This document shows, piece by piece, positions 18,646 to 33,247 of a stretch of DNA of 64,000 nucleotides. Origin of the DNA: Alphaproteobacteria bacterium. Lineage in GTDB: Bacteria > Pseudomonadota > Alphaproteobacteria > MPNO01. The stretch spans positions 1,416,820 to 1,480,819 of the forward strand of contig CBDFLJ010000001.1 of NCBI GenBank assembly GCA_965248835.1, read 5' to 3'. The position numbers and the translations under genes are program-made. The stretch's first letter is position 1, and every line of letters begins with the position of its first letter. Under the pieces are notes generated by a model. It saw nothing but the letters and a program-made list of their open reading frames with translations. It was not told where the DNA came from and did not search any database.

Positions 18646-20321
18646 GGCCTGCGTTCGTAGACCACCTTTCCGCCGACGATCGTGGTTTCGGCCAGCGTGT
18701 CTTTGATGTCCCCTTCGGGACAGCTCAGCGGGTCGCGGTCGAGCACGACCATGTCGGCGAGCTTGCCGACCTCGAGCGAGCCCTTGACGTCTTCCTCGAA
18801 GCTCAGCCACGCGCCTTCGATCGTCGCGCAGCGCAGCGCGTCCTCCCGGCTCAGCGCCTGGCCGGCCCCGATCCGCGTGCCGGTATGCAGGTTCTCGCGC
18901 GCGATCGACTGCCAGACCGGGTAGAATAGGCTGGTCGGCACGTTGTCGGTGGCCAGCGAGACGTGCACGCCGTGCTCACGCAGCCGCTTGAGGGGCACGA
19001 TGTCCTCCTCCCGCGCCGGGCCGAGCTCTTCGAGCATGATATGGGACTGCTTGTGGATGTAGCGGTTGGTGTGGGTGGTCAGCACCAGGCCCAGATCGGC
19101 GATGCGGCGGACCTCGTCCTGGCTGAACGCGCGGATGTGGCCAAGGATCCAGCGCTGATCGGCGATCGGCACCACCCGGTTCGCCGCCTCGAACAGGTCC
19201 AGGAACTCGCCCCACAGCGCCGCCACCCGGATGCCGTTGCGCGCGGCCTCGACCAGGAAGCCGACCATCCGATCCTCGGGCACGCCGCAATCGTAGTTGA
19301 ATCCCGACCACCCGGTATAGGGCGAGGCGCGCGCGCGCAGCAGGCTGTCCTGGTTGAAGCCGAACTCGGTATACATGCCACCGACCGCGAGCCACGGATC
19401 GCCCAGCCCGCGCCCACCGAGCCAGCCCGACCACGACCTGAGCGCGTGGGTGTAGTCGATATCCCGCTCCGGCCCCCAGGACGGGCTGAAGACGAGGTTC
19501 GCCCGCACCGTTGCCTCACCCGCGGCATGGACCGCCTGATAGGCCTGGATCAGCTCCTGCGCGGCGCCATGCTCCTCGAAGACGCTGGTCGTGCCGGTGG
19601 CGTTGTAGACCCGCATCGCCACCTTGAGCCCGCGGACCCGGTCCTCGGCCGTGAACCGCGGCGCCATCTGGAAATGGCTGAGCTCGACCACCGGCATGAA
19701 GGTGTTCTCGTGGATGACGCCGGTGGGTTCACCGGTCTGCGCATCACGCTCGAAGGTGATGGTATCCGACGGATCGGCCGTCTCCCTGCCGATCCCGCCA
19801 AGCGCCAGCGCGGCCGAGTTGGCGACCGAGGTCAGCGGCAGGATGTGGCGCCAGAACCCCCAGATCGGGCGGATATAGACCGGATTGTCCGGCGCGACCC
19901 GGTCGAGCTCCCAGCGCGTCGGGAAGCGTTTCTCGGCGAGGTTGTCGGGGACGTCCCAGTAATAGGGCGGATCGCCGATCGGCATGGTGAGGATCCACTG
20001 GCCCGGCGTGGATTCGGCAACCAGCGCTTCGATGCGCTGCAAGACATCGTCGATCGAACGGCAGCCCGCGAGCGAGGGGAAGACCGGCTTCAGCCCTTCG
20101 CGGTCGAGATGGGCGTGGCCGTCGATCAGCCCGGGCACGACCGCCCGTCCGCCGGCATCGATCAGCCTGGTTTCGGGTCCGGCCAGCGCTTCGATCTCGG
20201 CCGCTCCGCCGATGGCCACAATCCGCTCGCCGCGCACTGCCACGGCTTCGGCGAGCCCGAAGGCGGGATCGACGGTGATGACCTTCCCGCGGCTGAGGAT
20301 CAGATCGACCGGGCCTGCCAT
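18642..20321 (-). CDS. amidohydrolase family 3 (metal-dependent TIM-barrel hydrolase, YtcJ-like)
   Basis: Starting at the internal ATG gives a 559-aa protein. The HxH-type metal motif (VPGLIDGHAHLD) and C-terminal ATDNVP/HxxD region are typical of Amidohydro_3. The first 291 codons of ORF 18642..21194 are an out-of-frame overlap with ggt. Confidence 0.75.
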   Translation of the reverse strand: MAGPVDLILSRGKVITVDPAFGLAEAVAVRGERIVAIGGAAEIEALAGPETRLIDAGGRAVVPGLIDGHAHLDREGLKPVFPSLAGCRSIDDVLQRIEALVAESTPGQWILTMPIGDPPYYWDVPDNLAEKRFPTRWELDRVAPDNPVYIRPIWGFWRHILPLTSVANSAALALGGIGRETADPSDTITFERDAQTGEPTGVIHENTFMPVVELSHFQMAPRFTAEDRVRGLKVAMRVYNATGTTSVFEEHGAAQELIQAYQAVHAAGEATVRANLVFSPSWGPERDIDYTHALRSWSGWLGGRGLGDPWLAVGGMYTEFGFNQDSLLRARASPYTGWSGFNYDCGVPEDRMVGFLVEAARNGIRVAALWGEFLDLFEAANRVVPIADQRWILGHIRAFSQDEVRRIADLGLVLTTHTNRYIHKQSHIMLEELGPAREEDIVPLKRLREHGVHVSLATDNVPTSLFYPVWQSIARENLHTGTRIGAGQALSREDALRCATIEGAWLSFEEDVKGSLEVGKLADMVVLDRDPLSCPEGDIKDTLAETTIVGGKVVYERRP

Positions 20322-21907
20322 CAGGCGCCGACCGCGTAGGCCTCGCGCCGGGTATCGGCCGCGCCCAGCAGCACGCCGTCGGCCCGTCGTTCGATCACCT
20401 TGGCCGATCCGAAATATGACGCGCCCGCCGCGCGCTTGACCGGGAAGCCCTGGGCGGCCAAGCGCCGGGCGACATCGTCGGGGTAGGCCTCGTCCAGCAG
20501 CGTCTCGCCGTTGAGGTTGATGCTCCAGCGCGGCGCCTCGATGGCGGCCGTCAGCTCGATGCCGCGGTCGACCAGGTTCGACAGGATCTGGACGTGCGAC
20601 AGCGTCTGGCTCGGCCCGCCCGGCGTGGCCATCAGGTAGCGCAGCGCGCCGCCGTCGAGGACCACCACCGGATTCAGCGTGTGGGCCGGCCGCTTGCCGG
20701 GCGCAAGCACGCCGGCATGGTCCGGGTCGGTGCTGAACCCGGTCATCCGGTTGTTCATGTGGAAGCCGGTGCCGGGATCGAGGAAAGCGCCGCCGAAGAC
20801 ATGGAACACCGACTGCACGACCGAGATGCCGTTGCCTTCGCCGTCGGCCAGCGTGATGCAGGACGTCCCGCCCGCCGGATGGGCCGCCGCCGCGGCCGTC
20901 GCCGTCTCGCCCCGCGCCGCTTCCCGCAGCCGAGCGGTGGTCGCGGCACCCAGCATGTCGTCCACCGGGACCGGGTTGGTCCTGGGATCGGCGATCAGGT
21001 CCCGGCCCTCGGCGAAGACCGCGCGTTGGGCGCGCATGAAACAGGCAAGCCGAGCCGCATCGTCCGCGGTGAGGTCCTCGGGTGCGATGCCGTCCAGCGC
21101 GTTGAGCTGCATCAGCATCAGCACGCCGTATGAGTTGGGCGGCATCACTCGGACGGTCAGCCCGCGATAGGTCCCGGTCAGCGGCTCGACCCATTCGGGC
21201 TCGTAGCCGGCGAAGTCCTCGGCCGTCATCACGCCGCCGCAGGCCTGGCTGTAGGCGCCGATCGAGGCGCCGATCTCGCCCTCATAGACGACCTTGCTGC
21301 CCTCATCGGCGATCAGCCGCAGGCTGCGGGCAAGCGCCGGCTGGCGGACGATCGCTCCGGCGGGCAGGGGCTCGCCGTCGGGGTAGTAGATCTCTCGCAG
21401 CCCCGGATCGCCCTCGACATCCTCGCGGAACAGGTGCAGCGCGGCGGCGAGCACGCGCGAAACCGGATGGGCTTCGGCGAGCCGGACCGCGTCTTCCATC
21501 AGATCGGCCCAGGCGAGCTTGCCGTAGTGTTGGTGCATGCGCTCCCAGCCGCGGACCATGCCTGGCACGCTGGCGGCCAGCGGCCCGCGCAGCGGGATGC
21601 CGTCCCGGTAGGCCGCCAGCGTCGCCCCGGCCGGCGCGTGGCCCGAGGCGTTCATGCCGTGGGTGCGGCCCTGCCTGGCGTCGTGGAAGAGGATGAACGC
21701 ATCGCCGCCGAGCGAGGTCGCGTGCGGCAGGACCACCGACAGCGTAGCCGAGGTGGCGATCATCGCGTCGACCAGCGAGCCGCCGCGCTCCAACACCCGC
21801 AGCCCGGAGATCGAGGCCTGGGAGTGGCCGGAGACCACCATCGCGTTCATGCCGTAGACCGGTGAGCGGGGGATCTTGACCCCGGCGAAACTGTCTTGCT
21901 TGGCCAT
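20321..21907 (-). CDS. ggt: gamma-glutamyltransferase family protein (Ntn hydrolase)
   Basis: The autoprocessing/nucleophile region (GGTSCITLADGEGNGISVVQSVFHVFG) and the small-subunit GGT motifs are present. The stop overlaps the downstream gene's start (ATGA). Confidence 0.8.
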   Translation of the reverse strand: MAKQDSFAGVKIPRSPVYGMNAMVVSGHSQASISGLRVLERGGSLVDAMIATSATLSVVLPHATSLGGDAFILFHDARQGRTHGMNASGHAPAGATLAAYRDGIPLRGPLAASVPGMVRGWERMHQHYGKLAWADLMEDAVRLAEAHPVSRVLAAALHLFREDVEGDPGLREIYYPDGEPLPAGAIVRQPALARSLRLIADEGSKVVYEGEIGASIGAYSQACGGVMTAEDFAGYEPEWVEPLTGTYRGLTVRVMPPNSYGVLMLMQLNALDGIAPEDLTADDAARLACFMRAQRAVFAEGRDLIADPRTNPVPVDDMLGAATTARLREAARGETATAAAAAHPAGGTSCITLADGEGNGISVVQSVFHVFGGAFLDPGTGFHMNNRMTGFSTDPDHAGVLAPGKRPAHTLNPVVVLDGGALRYLMATPGGPSQTLSHVQILSNLVDRGIELTAAIEAPRWSINLNGETLLDEAYPDDVARRLAAQGFPVKRAAGASYFGSAKVIERRADGVLLGAADTRREAYAVGA

Positions 21908-21933
21908 CGATTCCGCTCTCGTCCCGGTCGCGC

Positions 21934-23106
21934 TCAGCCCGGCGCCAGACAGGTCTCCACCAGCCGGGCCCAGTAGCTCGCGCCGATCGGCAGGATCTCG
22001 TCGTTGAAGTCGTAATTGGGATTGTGCAGCAGGCAGCCGCCGTCGCCCGGCCCGTTGCCCAGCCAGACATAGGTGCCGGGCTTCTCGTTGAGCATGAAGG
22101 CGAAGTCCTCCGAGGCGAGCTTGGGGTTGAGGTCGGCGTGCACATTGCCCGCGCCGACGACCTCGGCCGCGGCGGTTGCTGCGATCTCGGATTCCTTCAC
22201 CGCGTTGACCGTCGGCGGGTAGCGCTTCTCGTAACGGACGGCGGCGTCCAGCCCGTGGGTCGCGGCCACCCCGGCGACGATGCGCCGCAGCGCGGCCTCG
22301 GCCCGGTCCTGGACCTCGGGGCGGAACGAACGGATCGTGCCGCGCAGCGTCACGTCCTCGGGGATCACGTTCCAGGTGTCGCCGCCGTGGATCTGGGTGA
22401 TGGTCAGGATCACCGCTTCCTGTGCATCGATGTTGCGGCTGGCCACGGTCTGAAGCGCGGTGACCATCTCGGCCGCGGCGACGATCGCATCGGTTCCCTG
22501 GTGCGGCGCCGCCGCGTGGGTCCCGTGCCCGGTGACCGCGATCTCGAAGATGTCGAAGGCCGCCATCATCGGCCCCGGCCGCACCGCCATCTCGCCGACG
22601 CCGAGCCAGGGCATGTTGTGCATGCCGAAGACCTGCTGCATCGGGAAGGTCTCGAACAGGCCGTCCTCGATCATCACCCGCGCGCCGCCCTCGTTCTCCT
22701 CGGCGGGCTGGAAGATGAAATGCACCGTGCCCGCGAAGTTGCGCGTCTCGGCGAGGTACCGCGCCGCCCCCAGCAGCATCGTCGTGTGCCCGTCATGGCC
22801 GCAGGCATGCATCTTGCCCTGGTTCCGCGAGCGGTGCGCGAAGTCGTTCTTCTCCTCGATATGCAACGCATCCAGATCGGCGCGCAGCCCGATTGTCTTG
22901 CCCGCGCCGCGGCTGCCCTCCAGCGTGCCCACCACGCCGGTCCCGGCAAGCCCGCGATGGGTTGCGATCCCGAGCTCGGCCAGCCGGTCGGCGACGAACT
23001 GCGCGGTCTCGTGCTCTTCGAAGGCGGTCTCCGGGTGCGTGTGCAGGTGCCGCCGCCAAGCGGTCATTTCGTCGTGGAACTCCGCGATTCGATTGATGAC
23101 CGGCAT
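21934..23106 (-). CDS. M20 family amidohydrolase (hippurate hydrolase / N-acyl- or N-carbamoyl-L-amino-acid amidohydrolase type)
   Basis: The translation starts MPVINRIAEFHDEMTAWRRHLHTHPE. Metal ligands (HACGHDGH) and a dimerisation domain are present. Confidence 0.8.
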   Translation of the reverse strand: MPVINRIAEFHDEMTAWRRHLHTHPETAFEEHETAQFVADRLAELGIATHRGLAGTGVVGTLEGSRGAGKTIGLRADLDALHIEEKNDFAHRSRNQGKMHACGHDGHTTMLLGAARYLAETRNFAGTVHFIFQPAEENEGGARVMIEDGLFETFPMQQVFGMHNMPWLGVGEMAVRPGPMMAAFDIFEIAVTGHGTHAAAPHQGTDAIVAAAEMVTALQTVASRNIDAQEAVILTITQIHGGDTWNVIPEDVTLRGTIRSFRPEVQDRAEAALRRIVAGVAATHGLDAAVRYEKRYPPTVNAVKESEIAATAAAEVVGAGNVHADLNPKLASEDFAFMLNEKPGTYVWLGNGPGDGGCLLHNPNYDFNDEILPIGASYWARLVETCLAPG

Positions 23107-23267
23107 GCAGGGGGCCTCCGTGGTCCGGCCGGGATGGTCACCGGCCGACCAGGCGGTGTCAAGGCCGGGCGATGTCTGATATCCGTCCGAGCCAGGTCGG
23201 CGACGGCGGTTGATCGCCGAGGCTGTGGGCGCTATCACCGGGGCTAGACCGAACGGGAGGCGAGACG

Positions 23268-24328: not shown

Positions 24329-24661
24329 ATGTGCAGCCTCTGCGGGGTCCTCGGCGGGCGGATCCATTGGAGCGAGGCCGCCAGCGCGCCCGAGGCCTTC
24401 GTCAGCCGGAAGGACCCGGTGACCCGACGGCGCGAGCGCCAGAACCGGACCCGTATCGCCAACGCGGTCCTCGAAGAGTACGGCCTGGTGCTGTCCGAAT
24501 GGGCGGGACCGTCCTACGTGCTTGCCAGCCGCACCGGCAGGACCACGCTGGTCGACAATTTGACCGAGCTGTGGGCCGCGGCGGAAAAGCTCGCCCGCCG
24601 GCCGTGCGATCCGCTCGATGATCGCCTGATTGCCGCTCTGGAGCGCCGCGGCGGTGGCTGA
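24329..24661 (+). CDS. hypothetical small protein (110 aa) with N-terminal MCSLCG Cys pair
   Basis: The ORF has strong GC3 codon bias. It starts 14 nt after the deacetylase stop, and its stop overlaps the GTG start of the COG0523 gene by 8 nt. I recognise no family. Confidence 0.5.
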   Translation: MCSLCGVLGGRIHWSEAASAPEAFVSRKDPVTRRRERQNRTRIANAVLEEYGLVLSEWAGPSYVLASRTGRTTLVDNLTELWAAAEKLARRPCDPLDDRLIAALERRGGG

Positions 24662-25667
24662 GCCGGCGGTGCCGATCCCGGTCAACGTGCTGACCGGCTT
24701 CCTCGGCAGCGGCAAGACGACGCTGCTGCGGCGCATGCTGGCCGCTCCGGGCATGGGCGAGACCGCGGTGCTAATCAACGAGTTCGGCGAGGTCGGTCTC
24801 GACCATCACCTGATCGAGCACGCGACCGAGAGCACGCTGGTGCTGGAGAACGGCTGCGTGTGCTGCGCCATGCGCGGTGATCTGCAGGCCGCCCTGCGCG
24901 ACCTGCTGTCGCGCCGCGACCGCGGCCAGGTGCCGTATTTCCGGAAGGTCGTCATCGAGACCTCGGGCCTCGCCGATCCGGTGCCGATCATCTACACCGT
25001 GACCGCCGAGCCGGTCATCCGGCACCATTTCCGTATCGGCTCGGTTCTGACGGTCGTCGATGCGGTGAACGGGGCGGCACAGCTCGACCGGTTCCCGGAA
25101 TCGGTCAAGCAAGTCGCGGTCGCCGACCGCATCCTTGTCACCAAAACCGACCTTGCGGGCCAAGAGCGGGGGCCGTCCTTGCGGGCGGTGCTGGGCCGGA
25201 TCAATTCGGCCTGCGAGATCATCGATTGCACCGAGGTGTTGCCGGCAATCGAGGATCTGCTGGCCGATGGGGCGGCGGTGCGAGAGTGGGTGAACGGGGC
25301 GGCGGCGGCCGATCACGCCCATGCAAGCGGGGTCAGCTCATTCACGATGTGGTTCGACGGCGCGCTCGATTGGACGGCCTTCGGCATCTGGCTCACCATG
25401 CTGCTCAACCGCCACGGCGAGGCGGTGCTCCGCGTCAAGGGCATGCTCAACGTGGCGGGGGTGGCCGATCCCGTGCTGATCAACGGCGTCCAGCACCTTG
25501 TGCACCCGCCGGCCCACCTTGCAAGCTGGCCGGACGAAGACCGGCGCTCGCGGATCGTCTTCATCGTCCGCGATATCGACGAGGCGCGGATCAGACGATC
25601 GCTGGAAGCGTTCAACGCGCTGGCCGCCCGGCGGCCGGGCGATCGGGCTGCTATGCCGGAGGGTTAG
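24654..25667 (+). CDS. COG0523-family GTPase (CobW/ZigA/YeiR-like putative metallochaperone)
   Basis: The P-loop (GFLGSGKTTLL), the CxCC metal motif (GCVCCAMRGD) and a His/Asp-rich segment before the C-terminal domain are present. The likely start is GTG 24654. Confidence 0.8.
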   Translation: MAEPAVPIPVNVLTGFLGSGKTTLLRRMLAAPGMGETAVLINEFGEVGLDHHLIEHATESTLVLENGCVCCAMRGDLQAALRDLLSRRDRGQVPYFRKVVIETSGLADPVPIIYTVTAEPVIRHHFRIGSVLTVVDAVNGAAQLDRFPESVKQVAVADRILVTKTDLAGQERGPSLRAVLGRINSACEIIDCTEVLPAIEDLLADGAAVREWVNGAAAADHAHASGVSSFTMWFDGALDWTAFGIWLTMLLNRHGEAVLRVKGMLNVAGVADPVLINGVQHLVHPPAHLASWPDEDRRSRIVFIVRDIDEARIRRSLEAFNALAARRPGDRAAMPEG

Positions 25668-26184
25668 CCCGCCCGCCGTTGTCCCGCAGGCGGCCGTGGC
25701 TCGGGCGCCAGCCGGTGCGGAAGGCGCCTACCAATCGATGCAGCAAATAGAACGCGATCGCCAGTAGAATCAGGACGATGATCTTCAGGACCAGCCCGCC
25801 GAAGATCGGGTCCAGCGTGGCGCCCCGGCTGATCAGGTGCTCGATCAGCATCACCAGCGCCTGCAGGGTCGCGCCGGCGCAGACGATCACCGCGATCAGG
25901 ATGGCGATCTGCAGCGTATCGAAGACCAGGCCCTCGGCCCCGAGATCGCCGGTCGCGCGGACGATGTTGTGGCGAAGCGACTGCCAGTGGGCGATCACAT
26001 AGCCGATCAGCCCGACCACGGCAGCGAACCAGAACACGATGTTGGAGGCCCGGACGTCGTCGACGCCGCCGGCGATGAAGGCCTCAAACGGCTGGTAGAA
26101 ATAGAGGAACACCAGCACCACCACCAGCCCGGCGGGGACGATCCACAAAAACGGTCTTCTGGGTGAATCGGTGTCGGTGCTCAT
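25651..26184 (-). CDS. hypothetical 4-TM membrane protein (paralog of 39148..39609)
   Basis: The translation from the internal ATG starts MSTDTDSPRRPFLWIVPAG. It has four hydrophobic helices and motifs shared with the second copy (FLYFYQPFEAF, IVFWFAAVVGLIGY..HWQSLRHNIVR, ILIAVIVCAGATLQAL). Confidence 0.55.
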   Translation of the reverse strand: MSTDTDSPRRPFLWIVPAGLVVVLVFLYFYQPFEAFIAGGVDDVRASNIVFWFAAVVGLIGYVIAHWQSLRHNIVRATGDLGAEGLVFDTLQIAILIAVIVCAGATLQALVMLIEHLISRGATLDPIFGGLVLKIIVLILLAIAFYLLHRLVGAFRTGWRPSHGRLRDNGGRANPPA

Positions 26185-26344
26185 TGCCCGGCCGGGTCGT
26201 CGCCTCGATGACGTCAGCCTATACCAACGCACCCCGCCGCGTCGACCGGCGGACTCCGTTGACCACCTGTGACAGGTGGTAGATCATTGAAAGCGAGGCG
26301 AAGAACCGGTGATCGGGCCGAAAACGGCGTCTTTGGAACGGGTC

Positions 26345-28402
26345 ATGACAGCGCGTCTTGGTATCGATGTCGGCGGCACTTTCACCGATCTGTTGCTGTT
26401 CGACGACGATTCGGGCGCGATGCACTTCCTCAAGACGCCGTCCACGCCGCACGATCAGTCGATCGGCATCCTGACCGGAATCGAGAAGATCCTCGCGGAG
26501 TCCGGCATGGCGCCGGCGGACATCCGCGGGCTGCTCCACGGCACCACGGTCTCGACCAATATCGTCCTGGAAGAAAAGGGCGCGAAGGTCGGCCTGCTGG
26601 TGACCGAGAACTTCGAACAGGTCCTCCACCTCGCCCGGTCGCAGACGCCGGGACCGCTTGCGGGCTGGATCACCATGATCAAGCCCGAGCCGCTGGCCGA
26701 TCTGGCGCTGACCCGCGGCATCGCCGAGCGGATCAACGCCCGCGGCCAGGTTCTCAAGCCGCTGGAGGAGGAAAGCGCCCGCGCGGCGGTCCGCGAATTG
26801 ATCGATCAGGGCGTGGAATCGATCACCATCTCGCTGTTGCACTCCTACGCCAATCCGAGCCACGAGCAGCGCCTGAAAGCGATTGCGGAGAGCTTCGACG
26901 CGGGACTCCCGCTGTCGCTGTCCTCGGAGATCCTGCCCGAGTTCCGCGAGTACGAGCGCACATTGGTCACGGTCATGAACGCCTATGTCGGACCCAGCAT
27001 GCGGAACTATCTGCGGCAGTTCGAAGACAAGCTGCGCGGCATCGCGTTCTCGCCCAAGGTCAACATCGTGCGCTCCGACGGCGGGCTGATGAGCGTTGCC
27101 CGCGCCTCGGAATCGCCGGTGCACACGATGCTGTCCGGGCCGGCGGGCGGAGTCTCCGGAGCTGCGTTCGTCTCGACGATCGCCGGCCAGACCGATGCGC
27201 TGGGCTTCGACATGGGCGGCACGTCGACCGACGTCTCGCTGATCCAGAACGGCCGGCCGACGATCTCGCGCCAGACCACGCTCGGCTACTATCCGGTCAA
27301 GGTGCCCTCGGTCGAGGTCCACAGCGTCGGCGCCGGCGGCGGCTCGATCGCCCATGTGCCGATGACCGGCGCGCTGCGCGTCGGGCCGGAGAGCGCCGGC
27401 GCGGTGCCGGGTCCGGCCTGCTATGGGCGCGGCGGCACCGAGCCCACGGTGACCGATGCCAACGTCGTCCTCGGACGGCTGCCGCCGATGCTGCTGGGCG
27501 GGGAGATGAGACTCGACGTCAACGCCGCCGAGGAGGCGGTCACCAAGGTCGCCCGCGCTCTCGGGCTCGATCCGCTGCAGGCGGCCCAGGGCATCCTCGA
27601 CATCGTCAACGAGAACATGTTCGGCGCCCTTCGCCTGGTCACCGTGCAGAAGGGTTTCGACCCGCGCGATTTTGCGCTGGTCGCCTTCGGCGGGGCGGGT
27701 CCGCTGCACGGCAACGCGATCGCCATGCTGGCCGGGTGCTATCCGGTCATTGTGCCGGCCACGCCCGGCGTGCTGTCCGCGTTGGGCTTTCTGTATTCCG
27801 ACGTGAAGAACGAGTTCGCCCAGACCTTCATCCGCAACATCGTCGATGCGCAACCCGGCGAGGTCGCCGAGGTGCTCGGCCGTCTCGGCGGCGAGGCGCG
27901 CGGATGGCTGGCCGAGGAGGGTGTGCCGCCGGACGGCCAGGACGTCCATTTCGAGGTCGACGTCCGGTATTTCCGCCAGGGCTACGAGGTCTCGCTCGAG
28001 GTCGCGCCCGACGGGCTCGGCGCCGAGGCGCTGGCCGACATCGGCCGCCGGTTCGGCGCCGTGCACGAGCGGCTCTACGGGTTCAAGCTGGAGACGCTGG
28101 TCGAGCTGGTCAATCTGCGCGCGGTCGGCGTCGGCCGCGTGCCGAAGGTCGATATCCCGCGCTTCGAACACGAGGGCGAGGACGCATCGGCCGCCGTCGT
28201 CGACCAGCACCGGGTCTATATCGACAACGGCTTCGTCGCGTCGAAGATCTACGACCGCATCCTGCTCCGAGCGGGCAACGTCATCGCCGGCCCGGCCGTG
28301 GTCCAGCAGAAGGATTCAACGACGTTGATCCACCCCGGCCATGTCGGCGTAGTCGATGCGTTTCTGAACATCGTCATTCGTCCCGAGGCGATGAATGCGT
28401 AG
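26345..28402 (+). CDS. hyuA: hydantoinase A / N-methylhydantoinase A / acetone-carboxylase-beta family (HyuA, ATP-hydrolysing subunit)
   Basis: The N-terminus has the actin-fold motif (MTARLGIDVGGTFTDLLLFDDDSGAMHFLKTPST). The Hydant_A middle domain (DMGGTSTDVSLI) is present. Confidence 0.85.
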   Translation: MTARLGIDVGGTFTDLLLFDDDSGAMHFLKTPSTPHDQSIGILTGIEKILAESGMAPADIRGLLHGTTVSTNIVLEEKGAKVGLLVTENFEQVLHLARSQTPGPLAGWITMIKPEPLADLALTRGIAERINARGQVLKPLEEESARAAVRELIDQGVESITISLLHSYANPSHEQRLKAIAESFDAGLPLSLSSEILPEFREYERTLVTVMNAYVGPSMRNYLRQFEDKLRGIAFSPKVNIVRSDGGLMSVARASESPVHTMLSGPAGGVSGAAFVSTIAGQTDALGFDMGGTSTDVSLIQNGRPTISRQTTLGYYPVKVPSVEVHSVGAGGGSIAHVPMTGALRVGPESAGAVPGPACYGRGGTEPTVTDANVVLGRLPPMLLGGEMRLDVNAAEEAVTKVARALGLDPLQAAQGILDIVNENMFGALRLVTVQKGFDPRDFALVAFGGAGPLHGNAIAMLAGCYPVIVPATPGVLSALGFLYSDVKNEFAQTFIRNIVDAQPGEVAEVLGRLGGEARGWLAEEGVPPDGQDVHFEVDVRYFRQGYEVSLEVAPDGLGAEALADIGRRFGAVHERLYGFKLETLVELVNLRAVGVGRVPKVDIPRFEHEGEDASAAVVDQHRVYIDNGFVASKIYDRILLRAGNVIAGPAVVQQKDSTTLIHPGHVGVVDAFLNIVIRPEAMNA

Positions 28403-28422
28403 ATCAAGGAGATCCTTCCGCG

Positions 28423-30723
28423 ATGACTGAGACATGGCGCACCGCCGGGTCGGTTTCGTTCGACGAGCTGTTGAAGGCCAACAAGAAACAGTTCGATGAG
28501 GTCTTCTCGGTCCAGATGAAGGCGTTCGGGCTGCGCGAAGCTTCCGGCCTGCCGCCGACCGCGGACGCCCTCGGCTCGGCGAGCCTGGAGGCGAGCAACG
28601 GCGCGCCGAACGGCGAGGCGACGGCCAGGCTCAATGCCCGTTTCGGGACGGGCTGGTCGAGCGAGATCGTCGAACACAGCATCGACCAGGGCAAGGTCAG
28701 CGTGTTGTGCAAGCTCGTGGTCGAGGGTACGACCAGGATGCAGTTCGGCTCGGCCCGGGTGAACGGCGATGCGGGCGCTGCGCTGCAGCGCGCGACCGAA
28801 GAAGCCCTCGAAAAATGCGCCGCTCAGTTCGACGCCGTCCTATCGGCTCTCGAAGGCGAAGACCGCGCGCCGGTGCCGGCCGAGCCCGCCGAGCCCGCCG
28901 CGGCCGCCTCACCGGCGCCGGCGGCAGCGCGGCGCGGCACGGGATCGCGGCTGGATACGATCACGCTGGATCTGATCGAGAACGCGCTGCGCAACGCGCG
29001 CCACGAGATGGATGCGGTGCTGTTCCGCTCCGCCATGTCGCCGGTCATCCGCGAGCAGCATGACGAGTTCCCGATGCTGACCGACGCCAAGGGGCGGATG
29101 ATCGTCGGCCAGTTCGGCTCCTACGTCCCGGAGATGCTGAAGGAACAGAGCTTCGACCTCTTTCCGGGCGACGTGATCCTGCAAAGCGATCCGTACAAAT
29201 GCGGCGGCGCGATCAGCCACATCAACGACTGGATGGTCCTGGTCCCGATCTTCTTCGACGGTGATCTGGTCGGATTCAGCTCCATGTTCGGCCACATGAT
29301 GGATGTCGGCGGCCCGGTGCCGGGCAGCATGCCGACCGCCGCGACCTCGATCTTCGGCGAGGGGCTCAGGATTCCGCCGATCAAGATCTACGAGCGCGGC
29401 GAGGTGAACAAATCCGCGATCGATCTGATCATGAACAACACCCGCACGCCGGAGATGAACTACTCCGACCTGATGGCGATCGTCGCCGGCTGCCGTGCCG
29501 GCGAGCGCCGGGTGGTCGAGATGTGCGAACGCTTCGGCCAGGAGGTCTACAAGCAGGCCTGCGAGGCGTTGCTCGAGCGCACCAACCGGGCGATGCGCCA
29601 ACTCATCGTCCGCAACCTGCCCGAGGAGCCTCAGTCGTTCGAGGACTATGTCGACGACGATGGGCTCGGCAACGGGCCCTTCAGGATGAAGCTCACCGTC
29701 TGGCGTGAAGGGGAGCATGCCTATTTCGACTGGACCGGCACCTCGGCGCAGGCGCCGGGCCCGATCAACTTCTACCTCCATGACGGCATGTTCAAGATGT
29801 TCATCGGCGTCTACATGATCATGGTCTTCGACCCCCAGATCCTGTTCAACGACGGGTTCTATGACCTGATCCACGTCACGATTCCGGACGGCTCGCTGCT
29901 GCATCCGAAGTTCCCGGCGGCGCTGGGCTGCCGCACCCACGCTCTGTCGCGCCAGTTCGACGTCCTGGGCGGGGCGCTTTCGAAGAACGCGCCGGAGATG
30001 GCGACCGCGGCCGGCTACGGCTCCAGCCCGCATTTCCTCTATTCCGGGCGCGACGCCAAGGGACGGGACTTCCAGCTCATGGAGATCCTCTATGGCGGCA
30101 TCCCGGGGCGCCCGATCGGCGACGGTATGGACGGCCATTCGTGGTGGCCGCTGTTCGAGAACATCCCCAGCGAGTATCTCGAGAGCTACTACCCGATGGT
30201 GATCGAATCCTATGCCAGCGTTCCCGACTCGGGCGGGGCCGGGCTGCACCGCGGCGGCAATGGCATCGAGAAGGTCTATCTGCTTCTGGAAGGCGGCGAG
30301 ATTTCCATCCACGACGACCGCCATTTGACCCAGCCGTGGGGGATCCTGGGCGGCAAGCCGGGCGCGTGCTCGCAGAAATGGCTGGTCCGGGCCGACGGCA
30401 CGCGCGAGCCGCTGCCATCGAAGATCGACAACGTGCGGGTGCAGGGCGGCGACCGCATCGTGTTCCGCACCGCCGGCGGCGGAGGTTGGGGCGACCCGCT
30501 GGACCGCGCGCCCGAGAAGATCGCTACCGACGTGCGGCGCAAGCTGCTTACGCGCGAGGCGGCGCGCGAGCGCTACGGCGTGGTCCTGGGCGAGCGGGGC
30601 ACGTCCGATATCAAGGCGACCGAGGCGTTGCGCGCAAGCCTGCGCTCCAGCCGCCGGCCGCCGGAGACGTTCGACTTCGGCGACCGCCCCGAAGGAATCG
30701 CGAACGGGGTGATCACCGTTTGA
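28423..30723 (+). CDS. hyuB: hydantoinase B / oxoprolinase family protein (HyuB) with a ~185-aa N-terminal extension and Ala/Pro linker
   Basis: An AAGGAG RBS lies 13 nt upstream of the ATG at 28423. The protein is 766 aa. The HyuB domain starts around DTITLDLIENALRNARHEMDAVLFRSAMSPVIREQHDEF and ends in GGGGWGDP. The preceding 185 aa are a separate module ending in the linker PVPAEPAEPAAAASPAPAAA. The 5' part of ORF 26269..30723 overlapping hyuA is an alternate-frame artefact. Confidence 0.8.
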   Translation: MTETWRTAGSVSFDELLKANKKQFDEVFSVQMKAFGLREASGLPPTADALGSASLEASNGAPNGEATARLNARFGTGWSSEIVEHSIDQGKVSVLCKLVVEGTTRMQFGSARVNGDAGAALQRATEEALEKCAAQFDAVLSALEGEDRAPVPAEPAEPAAAASPAPAAARRGTGSRLDTITLDLIENALRNARHEMDAVLFRSAMSPVIREQHDEFPMLTDAKGRMIVGQFGSYVPEMLKEQSFDLFPGDVILQSDPYKCGGAISHINDWMVLVPIFFDGDLVGFSSMFGHMMDVGGPVPGSMPTAATSIFGEGLRIPPIKIYERGEVNKSAIDLIMNNTRTPEMNYSDLMAIVAGCRAGERRVVEMCERFGQEVYKQACEALLERTNRAMRQLIVRNLPEEPQSFEDYVDDDGLGNGPFRMKLTVWREGEHAYFDWTGTSAQAPGPINFYLHDGMFKMFIGVYMIMVFDPQILFNDGFYDLIHVTIPDGSLLHPKFPAALGCRTHALSRQFDVLGGALSKNAPEMATAAGYGSSPHFLYSGRDAKGRDFQLMEILYGGIPGRPIGDGMDGHSWWPLFENIPSEYLESYYPMVIESYASVPDSGGAGLHRGGNGIEKVYLLLEGGEISIHDDRHLTQPWGILGGKPGACSQKWLVRADGTREPLPSKIDNVRVQGGDRIVFRTAGGGGWGDPLDRAPEKIATDVRRKLLTREAARERYGVVLGERGTSDIKATEALRASLRSSRRPPETFDFGDRPEGIANGVITV

Positions 30724-30754: not shown

Positions 30755-33247
30755 ATGCTGGAGTCCGTAATCATCGCACTCGTCGTCGCGGTCGTCGTCA
30801 TCGCGATCGTCTATATCCTGTCGGTGTGGATCTACAAGCGCGCGCCGGCGAACATGGGCTTCGTGCGCACCGGGATGCTCGGCACCAAGGTGTGCCTGGG
30901 CCGCGGTGCGATCGTCCTGCCGGTCTTTCACGAGGTCACGTGGGTCTCGCTGGAGACGATCAAGCTGATCGTCAGCCGCGCGCGCGAGCAGGCCGTTCTG
31001 ACCTCCGACAAGATCCGGATCGACGTCGTGGCCGAGCTCTACGCCCATGTCGGCCGGACTCCCGAGGATCTGCTGACCGCGAGCCGGAGCCTGGGGGAAA
31101 AGACATTCGATCCCGACAAGGTCCGCAACCTCCTGGAGGCCAAGGTCGTCAGCGTGTTGAGGAGCTATGCCGCCACCAAGACGCTCAGCGAGCTGCACGA
31201 GAACCGCGAGGCCATCTCGCGCGAGATGAAGGCCGCGGTCATGGAGAGCTTCCAGGCCAACGGGCTGACGCTCGAGGAAGTCACGATCGCGGCCCTGGAA
31301 CAGACCGCGAAGGAGCATTTCAAGCCCGACAACGTCTTCGATGCCGAGGGCCTGAAAATCATCACCGACATCACCTCGGATGCCCGCCGCAAGGTCCACG
31401 AGACCGAAAAGCGGACCGCGGTCGCGATCCGCCAGCGCGACCTCGACACCCAGCTCGATCTCCTGGAGATCGAAAAGAACGAAGCGCTCGCCAAGGCGGG
31501 TCAGGACAAGACGATCTCCAACGAACAGGCCCAGCAGCTTCGCGAGAAGCAGATCTTCATCCTCGACCAACGCAAGGCGGTTGAGGAGCGCGAGATCGAG
31601 AACGACGTTACCCTGGAGCGCATGCGGACCGACCGCGAGGTCGCGATCACCGAGGAGGCGCAAAAGCGCGAGGTGACCGAGATCCAAAAGGAGCTTGCGC
31701 TGGAGCAGGAACGCAAGGACCGCGAGATCCAGCTCATCAACAAGGAACGCGAGCGCGAGGCGGCCGAGATCCAGCAGCGCACCGCCGTGCTGGCCGAACA
31801 GGAGGTCGCCCGCGTGCTGCGCCACCAGGCGAGCGAGGACGCCACCGTCGCCACCCGCAAGCAGAGCGTCGAGGCGCGGCTGACCGTCCTCGATCTCGAA
31901 AAGCAGGAGGAGCTCGCCGCGGCCGGGCAGGAGCGCGACGTCGCCAACGAGAAGGCCCGCGCGCTCAGCGAGCGCCAGCGCTACATCCTGGAACAGCGCT
32001 GGGAGGTCCAGCAGGACGAGATCGACAAGGCCCTGGCACTCGACCGCGCGCAGATCCAGAAAGACGCGGCGGTGGCCGAAGAGAGCAAGATCCTGGAGGC
32101 CGCCGAGGTCCGCCGCGCGCTCGCGCTCGAGCTTGAGGAACGCGACCGCGAGATCGCCCTGATCAGGAAGGAGCAGGAACGCGAGAAGATCGACATCCAG
32201 CGGTTCCTGGGACGCGAGAGGGAGGAGCGCGACCGCGAGATCGCCCTTGTCCGCAAGACCGGAGAGCTCGAGGCGGTCGAGGTCGAGCGGCTGAAAACGA
32301 CCGCAGAGAAGGAAAACGCCGAGCACGGCGTGGAGTCGGTGCGCATCCTCGCCGATGCCGAGCGGGACAAGGCGATCGAGCGCATCGAGGCCGAGAAGCT
32401 TGCCGAGGTCCGTCGGATCGACGAGGAGAACAAGGCGCAGATCTCGCGTATGCACATGATCACCCAGGCCGAGGCCCGGCAGACCTCGGCCGAGCGCGAG
32501 GCCGAGGCCACGCTGATCAAGGCGCGCGCCAACAGCGATGCGCAGAAGGTCGCGGCCGAGGGCATCGAGAAGGAGGCCGCGGCCCCGGGCCGCGCCGAGA
32601 TGGCGGTCGAATCGCTGCGGGTGGAGAACACCCAGCGCATGCTCGAAGCCGAAGCGACCGGCATCGAGGCCAAGGCCGATGCGCTCAAGAAGTACAACGA
32701 GGCTGCGACCTTCCTGGAGCTGGCCAAGATGTATATCGAGGCCGAGCGCGATGTTCATATCGACCAGGCCAAGGCGATGGGCACCGCGCTCGGTGGCGCG
32801 CAGATCCGCATGTACGGCGGCGGCGACGGCACGGTGGAGACGATCCGCGGCATGTTCACCTCCGGCTTCGGCCTGGGCGAGGCGCTTGAGGGGCTTGGCC
32901 AGTCGATGCCCGAGGGGCTGCGCGAGCGGCTGTCCGCGCAGGGCCTCCGCGGCCTCCTCGGCCTGGCGCCGGGCGAGGCAAAGCCCGATGTCGAACGGAC
33001 GCTGCAAAAGACCGTCCAACGGCTCGATGCACTGGCCGCCAAGTCGCTGCGCGGCCAGAAGGCGCGCGCGATGCCGCTGTCCGAAGCGCTCGCCAAGCTC
33101 GAACAGCAGGCCAGCGGCGACGACGAAGCGATTCGGGCCGTCAACACGCTCAAGGGCATGAACCCCGAAGGCGCCTTCGATGACCTGCCTTTCGACAAGG
33201 TGTGGGCGCTGCTTCAGAGCGTGGCGCAGGCGCCCAGCCAGGCTTGA
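30755..33247 (+). CDS. flotillin/SPFH (band-7) domain protein, YqiK-like, with an extended E/A/R-rich coiled coil (830 aa)
   Basis: The N-terminal TM (MLESVIIALVVAVVVIAIVYIL) is followed by an SPFH domain and ~500 aa of heptad-rich charged repeats. These include an internal duplication (ERDREIALIRKEQ / ERDREIALVRKTG). Confidence 0.8.
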   Translation: MLESVIIALVVAVVVIAIVYILSVWIYKRAPANMGFVRTGMLGTKVCLGRGAIVLPVFHEVTWVSLETIKLIVSRAREQAVLTSDKIRIDVVAELYAHVGRTPEDLLTASRSLGEKTFDPDKVRNLLEAKVVSVLRSYAATKTLSELHENREAISREMKAAVMESFQANGLTLEEVTIAALEQTAKEHFKPDNVFDAEGLKIITDITSDARRKVHETEKRTAVAIRQRDLDTQLDLLEIEKNEALAKAGQDKTISNEQAQQLREKQIFILDQRKAVEEREIENDVTLERMRTDREVAITEEAQKREVTEIQKELALEQERKDREIQLINKEREREAAEIQQRTAVLAEQEVARVLRHQASEDATVATRKQSVEARLTVLDLEKQEELAAAGQERDVANEKARALSERQRYILEQRWEVQQDEIDKALALDRAQIQKDAAVAEESKILEAAEVRRALALELEERDREIALIRKEQEREKIDIQRFLGREREERDREIALVRKTGELEAVEVERLKTTAEKENAEHGVESVRILADAERDKAIERIEAEKLAEVRRIDEENKAQISRMHMITQAEARQTSAEREAEATLIKARANSDAQKVAAEGIEKEAAAPGRAEMAVESLRVENTQRMLEAEATGIEAKADALKKYNEAATFLELAKMYIEAERDVHIDQAKAMGTALGGAQIRMYGGGDGTVETIRGMFTSGFGLGEALEGLGQSMPEGLRERLSAQGLRGLLGLAPGEAKPDVERTLQKTVQRLDALAAKSLRGQKARAMPLSEALAKLEQQASGDDEAIRAVNTLKGMNPEGAFDDLPFDKVWALLQSVAQAPSQA

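What the first reader, a model, noticed from the sequence alone, without database searches (positions are those of the whole stretch)
28423..28980. HyuB-family protein carries a ~185-aa N-terminal module that by eye resembles a Rad52/Sak-type fold
The hyuB-like CDS (766 aa; AAGGAG RBS) is ~185 aa longer than typical N-methylhydantoinase B/OplB. The extra N-terminal module ends in an Ala/Pro-rich linker (PVPAEPAEPAAAASPAPAAA) before the HyuB domain begins (TLDLIENALRN...). Within the extension, the segment LNARFGTGWSSEIVEHSIDQGKVSVLCKLVVEGTTRMQFGSARVNGDAGAALQRATEEALEKCAAQF matches, position by position, the conserved core pattern of the Rad52/22 annealing-protein family (..FG.nGW...I......GK..V.V...V...G..R...G.......ka.s.EkA.KeA.tdalKra...FG). 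No stop or frameshift separates it from the hydantoinase domain. Either this is a previously unnoticed fusion, perhaps a recruited oligomerisation ring scaffold, or a Rad52-fold domain is co-opted by a hydantoinase/carboxylase complex. Alternatively it is a novel domain. Acetone-carboxylase-type alpha subunits are also ~770 aa, so an unrelated extension domain is the alternative.
Basis: partly seen in the sequence, partly recalled or inferred. Interest (0 to 1): 0.65.

Follow-up and report, generated by a model that had tools for sequence, protein, structure and literature searches.

The report
Stripped-down Rad52 domain fused to hydantoinase
A metabolic enzyme subunit (HyuB, part of an ATP-dependent hydantoinase/lactamase) carries at its front end a small, conserved domain that is a true relative of the DNA-repair protein Rad52 but has lost Rad52's DNA-clamping parts, so a DNA-annealing fold seems to have been re-used, probably as an assembly module for enzymes.

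Summary

- **The gene is real.** Window 28423-30723 (+) is one 766-aa CDS. The same in-frame fusion occurs in 54 complete loci from 68 MAG species and in at least 118 protein clusters of 740-792 aa.
- **It is only part of Rad52.** It has the stem (helix plus beta-beta-beta-alpha). The DNA-gating beta-hairpin and the C-terminal cap are absent. The K152/R153/R156 equivalents are E/K/A in the window.
- **It is selected.** dN/dS is 0.15 for the core, 0.11 for HyuB and 0.66 for the tether.
- **The core recurs in two other forms elsewhere.** It is a standalone about 165-aa protein always directly after an isochorismatase-family gene. It is also a C-terminal appendage on a second HyuB family (120 of 120 tested).

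My best reading is a non-DNA self-association or adaptor module that clusters pathway enzymes. That function is inferred, not shown. I found no literature on it.

The parts
26309..28402 (+). hyuA-type partner subunit (697 aa) directly upstream in the same operon
   Evidence: Pfam Hydant_A_N, Hydantoinase_A and Hydant_A_C. NCBIfam best match is caprolactamase alpha at 518 bits, below the 1000-bit equivalog cut-off. Present in 53 of 53 full-length related loci.
28406..28411 (+). AAGGAG ribosome-binding site, 11 nt before the ATG
   Evidence: Read directly from the sequence.
28423..30723 (+). Whole fusion CDS, 766 aa plus stop: N-helix, linker, Rad52-like core, tether, HyuB
   Evidence: The identical protein is in the public collection as P0024.
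28450..28533 (+). Conserved N-terminal amphipathic helix (residues 10-37, SFDELLKANKKQFDEVFSVQMKAFGL). It is specific to this clade and absent from canonical Rad52-type annealing proteins
   Evidence: Nearly invariant D14, L16, L17, A19, N20, F24, D25, F28, Q31, G36. Predicted helix 13-34 with pLDDT 68-74 in the full-length model. dN/dS 0.18. Also present in the standalone paralogues.
28534..28611 (+). Linker 1 (residues 38-63), predicted disordered. It occupies the place where Rad52 has its beta-hairpin
   Evidence: pLDDT below 50 and no strands predicted. dN/dS 0.29. Pfam profile positions 1-34 are unmatched.
28612..28830 (+). Rad52/22-family core (residues 64-136): helix 65-74, strands 78-88, 91-100 and 103-112, then a helix starting at 117. 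This equals the Rad52 'stem' plus the helix before it
28831..28950 (+). Helix end plus Ala/Pro/Arg-rich flexible tether (residues 137-176)
   Evidence: pLDDT below 50 from residue 144. In 95 homologues the linker is 32-47 aa long, with A 23 %, P 14 %, R 13 %, G 10 %. dN/dS 0.66, so the sequence is nearly free while length and composition are kept.
28951..30720 (+). HyuB (hydantoinase B/oxoprolinase) catalytic-type domain, residues 177-766
   Evidence: PF02538 E 8.8e-150, profile 1-519 of 519. Closest solved relatives are N-methylhydantoinase 7hk5 (E 2e-73) and caprolactamase 6yra_B (E 2e-65). dN/dS 0.11.

Best explanation
**What it is.** The N-terminal module of this HyuB subunit is an exapted, minimal Rad52/22-family domain, most similar to phage and bacterial single-strand-annealing proteins. 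It keeps the ring-forming 'stem' (helix plus beta-beta-beta-alpha). It has lost the beta-hairpin and the C-terminal cap that form Rad52's ssDNA groove, and it has gained a clade-specific N-terminal amphipathic helix.

**How it is attached.** A disordered tether of about 40 aa, rich in Ala, Pro and Arg, joins it to the HyuB subunit of an uncharacterised ATP-dependent HyuA/HyuB cyclic-amide hydrolase.

**Proposed mechanism.** The domain no longer anneals DNA. It acts as a self-associating adaptor that gathers HyuAB complexes into a higher-order assembly. In genomes that also have the paralogous copies, it would bring in a second HyuAB pair and an isochorismatase-type amidase that probably acts in the same pathway.

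**Shown.**
- The fusion is real and recurrent.
- The core is homologous to Rad52 and adopts its fold.
- The cap elements are absent.
- The domain is under purifying selection.
- Three architectures recur with the same enzyme types.

**Inferred.**
- Loss of DNA binding.
- Oligomerisation.
- Scaffolding or recruitment.
For: **The fusion is real.**
- Searches show the in-frame fusion in 54 complete loci out of 68.
- The best-matching protein clusters are 118 fusions of 740-792 aa.

**The core is homologous to Rad52.**
- PF04098 is matched above its cut-off.
- The family profile finds 436 proteins at E<=1e-3.
- All 10 tested hits of 175-251 aa (E 1e-11 to 3e-9) are PF04098 members at 31-65 bits. 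One of them sits in a phage-like locus.
- hhalign gives 99.8 %, E 9e-28, 40 % identity over 75 columns.

**The fold agrees.**
- Foldseek against PDB puts RAD52 first, and Foldseek against BFVD puts phage Rad52/59/22, Sak3 and Erf first.

**The DNA apparatus is reduced.**
- Only Pfam profile positions 35-130 of 153 are matched.
- No strands are predicted before residue 78, and the chain is disordered from residue 144.
- The position equivalent to K152 is K/R in 33 of 34 annealing-protein relatives and in 90 of 119 fusions.
- The position equivalent to R153 is K/R in 33 of 34 relatives but only 35 of 119 fusions.
- The window has E130, K131 and A134.
- The roles of K152/R153/R156 and of the hairpin R55/V63 come from PMC6137706. 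The stem/cap definition, and the contacts between stems of adjacent protomers, come from PMC11306251.

**It is a selected, tethered module.**
- dN/dS is 0.15 for the core and 0.18 for the N-helix, against 0.66 for the tether.

**It travels with these enzymes.**
- A standalone paralogue lies 8-18 nt after an orthologous isochorismatase-family gene in every context examined: L001, L005, L021, L034, L053, L055, L070-L076.
- A second HyuB family has the core at its C-terminus in 120 of 120 homologues.
- All three forms lie in one cluster in L076.

**The context is metabolic.**
- Synteny is conserved in 53 of 53 loci, with no recombination genes.
Against: - No oligomer was modelled or measured; only monomer predictions were possible.
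- Several basic residues stay conserved in the core: R73, R89, K97, K105, R112, R123, and R at position 130 in 79 of 119 fusions. Net charge does not differ from the annealing-protein relatives. Nucleic-acid binding is therefore not excluded.
- The window itself has neither the standalone paralogue, nor the isochorismatase gene, nor HyuB2 within 64 kb. Any heteromeric scaffold cannot be obligatory.
- Only 2 of 16 family members reach PF04098 on their own.
- The alignment used for hhalign (A5) was chosen from hits of the same profile, so that number is not independent.
Confidence: 0.5

Rival explanations
1. The domain still binds nucleic acid (ssDNA, or RNA as a dsRBD-like alpha-beta3-alpha fold). 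It would give the enzyme a second role, for example binding its own mRNA for autoregulation or anchoring to the nucleoid.
For: It is a true Rad52-family homologue. Conserved basic residues persist: K97, K105, R112, R123, and R130 in most members. dsRBDs are the next-best structural matches.
Against: The hairpin (R55/V63 equivalents) and the C-terminal cap that build the ssDNA groove are absent (PMC6137706, PMC11306251). The dibasic motif is relaxed, with K/R at the second position in 35 of 119 fusions against 33 of 34 relatives, and E130 in the window. The same core is attached to three different metabolic partners and never lies next to recombination genes.
Confidence: 0.17
2. The module is an intramolecular accessory of catalysis. 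It would act as a tethered lid, regulatory or ligand-binding domain, or as a third-subunit equivalent like the small subunits of acetone or acetophenone carboxylases. It would dock on HyuA/HyuB rather than self-associate.
For: It is fused to HyuB at either terminus in two paralogous families. The N-helix gains moderate confidence (pLDDT 68-74) in the full-length model, against about 53 when modelled alone. Other members of this enzyme superfamily use extra small subunits; this last point is my own knowledge of acetone and acetophenone carboxylases, entries 5m45 and 5l9w.
Against: The standalone form is coupled to an isochorismatase-family gene even where no HyuA/HyuB lies within 8 kb (L072/L073, L071, L075). 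There is no sequence match to any known small subunit or to the acetone-carboxylase alpha N-region. Long disordered tethers on both sides fit a mobile module better than a fixed lid.
Confidence: 0.2
3. The module is a targeting device that brings the enzyme to the membrane-associated SPFH/flotillin-like protein encoded directly downstream, or to the conserved membrane protein upstream.
For: The Band_7 gene (30755-33247) and the 193-aa membrane protein gene (25651-26232, minus strand) accompany the fusion in 53 of 53 loci. Band_7 starts 31 nt after the fusion's stop.
Against: Standalone and C-terminal forms occur in contexts without a Band_7 gene (L072/L073). There is no direct evidence of any interaction.
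Confidence: 0.08
4. It is an artefact: a mis-assembly, a frameshift that joins a small gene to hyuB, or a decaying prophage remnant.
For: Some database entries show the module as a separate protein of 160-190 aa.
Against: Those entries are frameshifted or truncated. In L001 the conserved HyuB N-terminus (RRLDTVSLDLIENALRN) has no start codon of its own and continues in another frame from inside the 'small gene'. 54 complete in-frame loci exist, and dN/dS is 0.15.
Confidence: 0.01

Closest known systems
Bacterial and phage Rad52/22-family single-strand annealing proteins (Pfam PF04098; e.g. P0216, P0223, P0225 found here; Sak-type proteins)
   Same: Same core sequence motifs (RLN.aFg..WSfE.VeH ... 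V.VLgkL.v.G..KMQFGs ... A..dAL.kCA..f), with 27-34 % identity to the window and hhalign 99.8 %. Same helix plus beta-beta-beta-alpha fold.
   Different: The fusion module lacks their N-terminal 'G.kL.YV' hairpin segment, their C-terminal 'G(I/V)GL.LY' segment and their tail. Their invariant dibasic 'KK' is relaxed. It has an unrelated N-terminal helix. It sits on a metabolic enzyme rather than in a phage recombination module.
Human RAD52 N-terminal domain, yeast Rad52 and Mgm101 (5jrb, 8tkq, 8g3g, 9yi6)
   Different: No domed cap, that is no beta-hairpin 52-66 and no residues 157-208. The K152/R153/R156 equivalents are E130/K131/A134. Ring formation and DNA annealing are untested.
Caprolactamase CapAB, N-methylhydantoinase and HyuA/HyuB ATP-dependent cyclic-amide hydrolases (6yra, 7hk5)
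   Same: Complete Hydantoinase_B domain with an adjacent Hydantoinase_A subunit. These are the closest solved relatives.
   Different: Those enzymes have no N-terminal module; 6yra_B aligns from its residue 5. NCBIfam equivalog cut-offs are not reached (254 vs 1000 bits), so the substrate is unknown.
Acetone carboxylase alpha subunit (about 776 aa; 5m45, 5svb)
   Same: Similar total length and a HyuB-type core.
   Different: Its extra N-terminal region (residues 1-111) has no detectable similarity to this module. The HyuB match is weak (E 5e-23).
dsRBD-like alpha-beta-beta-beta-alpha domains (dsRBD, ribosomal uS5 N-domain, HPF)
   Different: No sequence-level relationship was found, whereas Rad52-family homology is significant at sequence level.

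Membership tests
Rad52/Rad22 family (Pfam PF04098; Rad52-type SSAP superfamily) | Sequence match to the family model above the curated threshold | tested here: met
   24.4 bits against a 20.3 cut-off, E 3e-5, residues 64-140 to profile 35-130 of 153. Only 2 of 16 close homologues reach E<=0.1 on their own, and one public homologue (P0106) already carries PF04098.
Rad52/Rad22 family (Pfam PF04098; Rad52-type SSAP superfamily) | Reciprocal profile homology to accepted members | tested here: met
   The A2 profile finds proteins of 175-251 aa at E 1e-11 to 3e-9 in 1.84e9 sequences. 10 of 10 tested are PF04098 members at 31-65 bits. hhalign 99.8 %.
Rad52/Rad22 family (Pfam PF04098; Rad52-type SSAP superfamily) | beta-beta-beta-alpha stem fold | tested here: met
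Rad52/Rad22 family (Pfam PF04098; Rad52-type SSAP superfamily) | N-terminal beta-hairpin of the domed cap (R55/V63 in human RAD52) that gates ssDNA | tested here: not met
   Profile positions 1-34 are unmatched. Residues 38-63 are predicted disordered, with no strands. In the alignment, the SSAP hairpin segment has no counterpart.
Rad52/Rad22 family (Pfam PF04098; Rad52-type SSAP superfamily) | C-terminal cap segment closing the DNA groove (human residues 157-208; bacterial 'GIGLYLW') | tested here: not met
   The domain ends at F136 to about residue 144 and runs into a disordered Ala/Pro linker.
Rad52/Rad22 family (Pfam PF04098; Rad52-type SSAP superfamily) | Basic residues contacting the ssDNA backbone (K152, R153, R156) | tested here: not met
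   The window has E130, K131 and A134. Among fusions, K/R occurs in 90 of 119, 35 of 119 and 6 of 119 at these positions. SSAP relatives have K/R in 33 of 34 at each of the first two positions.
Rad52/Rad22 family (Pfam PF04098; Rad52-type SSAP superfamily) | Homo-oligomeric ring | not testable with these tools
   Only single-chain predictions were available.
Rad52/Rad22 family (Pfam PF04098; Rad52-type SSAP superfamily) | ssDNA binding or annealing activity, and a recombination-gene neighbourhood | tested here: not met
   Activity is not testable here. The neighbourhood is metabolic in 53 of 53 loci (HyuA, deacetylase-like, CobW, Band_7, ABC ATPase), with no exonuclease or SSB.
Hydantoinase B / oxoprolinase (PF02538) subunit of HyuA/HyuB enzymes | Full-length match to the family model | tested here: met
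   E 8.8e-150, profile 1-519 of 519, residues 178-692.
Hydantoinase B / oxoprolinase (PF02538) subunit of HyuA/HyuB enzymes | Adjacent Hydantoinase_A partner gene | tested here: met
   hyuA lies at 26309-28402, 20 nt upstream, and is present in 53 of 53 loci.
Caprolactamase / acetophenone carboxylase / acetone carboxylase (specific enzymes) | Equivalog-level score to the specific enzyme model | tested here: not met
   CapB 254 bits vs 1000, ApcD 127 vs 1500, CapA 518 vs 1000. Acetone carboxylase alpha gives only E 5e-23 over the core.

The most novel reading that the evidence does not exclude
A Rad52-type ring-forming core, taken from a phage-like annealing protein, has been domesticated as a protein-only scaffold. 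Three paralogous copies would co-assemble into one ring and tether two ATP-dependent hydantoinase-type enzymes and an isochorismatase-type amidase into a multi-enzyme body for N-heterocycle or cyclic-amide breakdown. The copies are N-terminal on HyuB1, C-terminal on HyuB2, and standalone next to the amidase gene. This would be the first non-nucleic-acid function of the Rad52 fold, and it would be widespread in uncultured soil and marine Alphaproteobacteria.
Probability: 0.3. Interest if true: 0.8.

Novelty: new variant of a known kind. Interest (0 to 1): 0.66.

Why it matters
Rad52-family proteins are known only as DNA and RNA annealing or recombination-mediator proteins. Here a bona fide family member is stripped to its oligomerising stem and permanently attached to a metabolic enzyme.

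- It occurs in hundreds of protein clusters under purifying selection.
- It has two further architectures on related enzymes.

If it works as an assembly module, it shows how a ring-forming DNA-repair fold can be re-used to organise metabolism. It would also give a naturally minimal Rad52 stem for studying ring assembly apart from DNA binding.

There is a practical point too. The domain is invisible to routine annotation. Nearly all members are labelled only 'N-methylhydantoinase B', and the C-terminal version is missed by Pfam in 10 of 10 tested. Frameshifted long-read MAGs turn it into spurious 'hypothetical' small genes.

Tried and rejected
- **PDB sequence searches with the module.** Neither the single sequence nor the profile found a Rad52 hit; only noise at E above 0.1. 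The relationship is too distant for those sequence searches against PDB chains.
- **hhalign of the family against one human RAD52 sequence.** It found nothing. Its numbering was later checked against residues quoted in PMC11306251.
- **PHROGs and NCBIfam.** They gave weak 'Rz-like spanin / Rz1' hits on residues 105-147. I judge these compositional and reject them.
- **AFDB Foldseek.** The library was unavailable.
- **Exact look-up of the window protein's contig.** It failed, and cluster look-up gave no names, so the source organism remains unidentified. GC is 68 %.
- **Acetone-carboxylase-type N-extension.** Rejected.
- **Separate small gene, or programmed frameshift.** Rejected. 'Standalone' hits P0002-P0013 are truncated or frameshifted fusions.
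- **Net charge of the core.** It does not separate fusions from annealing proteins, so it is uninformative.
- **Search of the window for a second copy, an isochorismatase gene or HyuB2.** None found.
Full report
**1. What is in the window.**
A single ORF runs from ATG 28423 to the stop at 30721-30723 (766 aa). AAGGAG lies at 28406-28411, and the upstream hyuA (26309-28402) ends 20 nt before the ATG. Pfam places a complete Hydantoinase_B domain at residues 178-692 (E 8.8e-150). On the first 185 residues it gives Rad52_Rad22 (PF04098) at residues 64-140 with 24.4 bits, above the curated cut-off of 20.3 (E 3e-5).

**2. The fusion is real, old and common.**
A scan of one genome per species (185,579 species) with two peptide patterns from the module found 68 loci. 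All are metagenome-assembled genomes: mostly Alphaproteobacteria (Xanthobacteraceae, Rhodospirillaceae, Hyphomicrobiales), plus one SAR324 bin and one Acidiferrobacteraceae bin.
- In 54 loci the module and HyuB form one complete ORF of about 740-800 aa.
- In 6 more they are in frame until the contig ends, and 2 contigs stop before HyuB.
- Six loci are broken by frameshifts, all from one long-contig MAG series (MFD...).
- In the frameshifted example L001 (same contig as L044), the conserved HyuB N-terminus (RRLDTVSLDLIENALRN) has no start codon and continues in another frame from inside the 'small gene'. The separate 160-190-aa proteins returned by the first protein search are therefore calling artefacts.
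- A full-length search returned 118 fusion clusters of 740-792 aa at 71-78 % identity, named only 'N-methylhydantoinase B' or 'hydantoinase B/oxoprolinase family protein'. Just one carries a precomputed PF04098 label.
- Six much more divergent fusions (42-56 % identity, 733-779 aa) also exist.

**3. The core is a Rad52-family homologue.**
Four lines of evidence agree.
- (a) The Pfam hit is above threshold, although only 2 of 16 relatives reach it individually.
- (b) A profile of the module (alignment A2) searched against 1.84 billion representative proteins found 436 hits at E<=1e-3. Beyond the family itself there is a block of 175-250-aa proteins matched over profile positions 62-136 at E 1e-11 to 1e-7. 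All 10 that I tested are PF04098 members at 31-65 bits. One lies among small overlapping ORFs next to an Amidase_2 gene, which is a phage-like context.
- (c) Profile-profile comparison of A2 with 29 of those proteins gives 99.8 % probability, E 9e-28, and 40 % identity over 75 columns. These sequences were picked by the same profile, so this is not independent of (b).
- (d) AlphaFold2 predicts helix 65-74, strands 78-88, 91-100 and 103-112, and a helix from 117. pLDDT is 85-90 with 16 sequences and 90-95 with 125.
  - In Foldseek against PDB, the only six hits at E<=1e-3 are RAD52.
  - In Foldseek against viral models, phage 'Rad52/59/22' proteins (29-30 % identity) come first, then Sak3 and Erf.

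**4. What it lacks.**
The match covers Pfam positions 35-130 of 153. [quoted passage not shown] The stems of adjacent protomers contact each other in the ring (PMC11306251).

The domed cap is missing on both sides.
- Residues 38-63 are predicted disordered where Rad52 has the beta-hairpin 52-66, whose R55 and V63 sandwich the bases.
- The chain becomes a disordered Ala/Pro/Arg-rich linker from about residue 144, where Rad52 and the bacterial relatives continue with the groove-closing segment (PMC6137706).

The phosphate-contacting K152/R153/R156 correspond to E130/K131/A134 in the window.
- Across 119 fusions, K/R frequencies at these positions are 90, 35 and 6.
- In 34 annealing-protein relatives, the first two positions are K/R in 33 of 34 each.

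Other basic residues (K97, K105, R112, R123) remain conserved, and net charge is not different. Loss of nucleic-acid binding is therefore likely but not proven.

**5. Anatomy and selection.**
The module has four parts:
- a clade-specific, strongly conserved amphipathic helix (residues 10-37);
- a disordered linker;
- the Rad52-like core;
- a tether of 32-47 aa (mean 41; A 23 %, P 14 %, R 13 %, G 10 %).

Pairwise Nei-Gojobori estimates over 841 locus pairs:

| Segment | dN/dS |
|---|---|
| N-helix | 0.18 |
| Linker 1 | 0.29 |
| Core | 0.15 |
| Tether | 0.66 |
| HyuB | 0.11 |

The helix and core are constrained almost as strongly as the enzyme, while the tether keeps only its length and composition. 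This excludes a decaying remnant.

**6. The same core on other partners.**
This was the most informative lead outside the given coordinates.
- **Standalone paralogues of 150-180 aa.** They have the same N-helix, a core with a Gly-rich insertion, and end at '...ALAKCAxML'. Each lies 8-18 nt downstream of an orthologous isochorismatase-family gene (55-66 % identical between contexts) in every context I could read. The next genes differ: a second HyuA/HyuB pair (L001, L076), QueF with Fer2 and a molybdopterin enzyme (L072/L073), AhpC (L075), or a 4HBT thioesterase and OsmC (L071).
- **A second HyuB family, HyuB2.** One example is L076 11142-13337 (731 aa). It carries the core at its C-terminus behind a low-complexity linker of roughly 50-70 aa. 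It is 34 % identical to the window core by tblastn (E 9e-7). All 120 of its 120 best homologues (667-779 aa) contain the core a median of 7 residues from the C-terminus. Pfam does not see it in any of 10 tested.
- **All three forms occur in one cluster in L076**.
- **In 42 of 53 full loci** the isochorismatase gene lies just upstream of the fusion operon.
- **The window has only the N-terminal fusion.** It has no standalone copy, no isochorismatase gene and no HyuB2 in 64 kb.

Attachment of one small domain to either end of paralogous enzymes through long flexible linkers, plus a free copy coupled to a further hydrolase, is the pattern expected of an interaction or assembly module.

**7. Enzyme context.**
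The order is deacetylase-like (PF01522; best NCBIfam match PuuE allantoinase, far below cut-off), a 110-aa protein, a CobW-type GTPase, a 193-aa membrane protein on the opposite strand, HyuA, the fusion, a Band_7/SPFH protein of 830 aa, and an ABC ATPase. The last five are conserved in 53 of 53 loci. No equivalog threshold is reached for caprolactamase or acetophenone carboxylase. The closest solved relatives are an N-methylhydantoinase and caprolactamase, which have no N-terminal module. From established knowledge, HyuAB plus an isochorismatase-family amidase recalls the N-methylhydantoinase / N-carbamoylsarcosine amidase pair of creatinine degradation. That is a lead only, and the substrate is unknown.

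**8. Mechanism and rivals.**
My best explanation has a composite confidence of 0.5. About 0.9 applies to 'real, selected, Rad52-homologous, cap-less domain on HyuB'. About 0.4 applies to the function. On this reading the stem keeps the self-association property of Rad52 rings and serves as a tethered adaptor. It clusters HyuAB complexes and, where paralogues exist, joins HyuA2B2 and the amidase.

The rivals are:
- retained nucleic-acid binging (0.17);
- an intramolecular lid, regulatory domain or third-subunit role (0.20);
- targeting to the SPFH or membrane proteins (0.08);
- artefact (0.01).

None of the functional readings could be tested directly, because only monomer predictions were available.

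**9. Novelty.**
Full-text searches found no paper containing both 'Rad52' and 'hydantoinase'. The nine papers citing PF04098, judged from their titles and abstracts, concern recombination or surveys, not this architecture. The fold and family are known. The new parts are the architecture, the loss of the cap, the metabolic setting and the three-form distribution. I rate it a new variant of a known kind with interest 0.66: surprising to a Rad52 or SSAP specialist and readily testable, but function is still inferred.

Noticed in passing
L001 1221-1709 (-); L076 8001-8510; L072/L073 8001-8507; L005, L021, L034, L053, L055, L070, L071, L074, L075: Standalone 150-180-aa paralogues of the module (same N-helix, core with a Gly-rich insertion). 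Each lies 8-18 nt downstream of an orthologous isochorismatase-family gene, in several otherwise different neighbourhoods. None is present in the window.
   Followed up: yes
L076 11142-13337 (HyuB2, 731 aa) and P0291-P0410: A second HyuB family carries the same Rad52-like core at its C-terminus behind a long Ala/Pro/Arg linker (120 of 120 homologues). Pfam does not detect it in any of 10 tested.
   Followed up: partly
window 30755-33247 (+): An 830-aa Band_7/SPFH (flotillin-like) protein with a long charged coiled-coil-like region starts 31 nt after the fusion gene. It is syntenic in 53 of 53 related loci. Its link to a cytosolic-type hydantoinase is unexplained.
   Followed up: no
window 24329-24661 (+): A 110-aa protein with no family match begins MCSLCG (a CxxC motif). 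Its end overlaps the start of the CobW-type GTPase gene by 32 nt. It is conserved between the deacetylase-like gene and cobW in 44 of 53 loci, so it may be a metallochaperone partner.
   Followed up: no
window 25651-26232 (-): A 193-aa predicted membrane protein with no family match is divergently placed before hyuA and conserved in 53 of 53 loci.
   Followed up: no
L001 8440-8560 (= L044), L012, L023, L056, L065, L067: Frameshifts in or near the GC-rich linker in one long-contig MAG series split the fusion. They generate spurious 'hypothetical' proteins of 160-190 aa with Arg-rich out-of-frame tails in public databases (e.g. P0004, P0005).
   Followed up: yes
P0184 (2925 aa): A very long protein matches profile positions 92-123 of the module in 12 separate stretches (E 1.7e-15). 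It may be a repeat protein or a compositional match.
   Followed up: no
P0019 (266 aa): The module (residues 1-128) is followed by an unrelated C-terminal sequence instead of HyuB. It may be another architecture or a chimeric or frameshifted contig.
   Followed up: no
window 26269-30723 (+): The hyuB reading frame stays open for 2.1 kb upstream, through hyuA, giving a mechanical ORF of 1484 aa. Long antisense ORFs also cover the region. This is expected at 68 % GC and is not a gene signal.
   Followed up: partly
window 17557-23238 (-): By eye only, without a family search, the genes upstream look like a run of amide and peptide hydrolases: an M20-type amidohydrolase, a gamma-glutamyltranspeptidase-like protein, an Amidohydro-type protein and an alanine-racemase-fold protein. 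In the window they take the place that the isochorismatase gene holds in most related loci.
   Followed up: no
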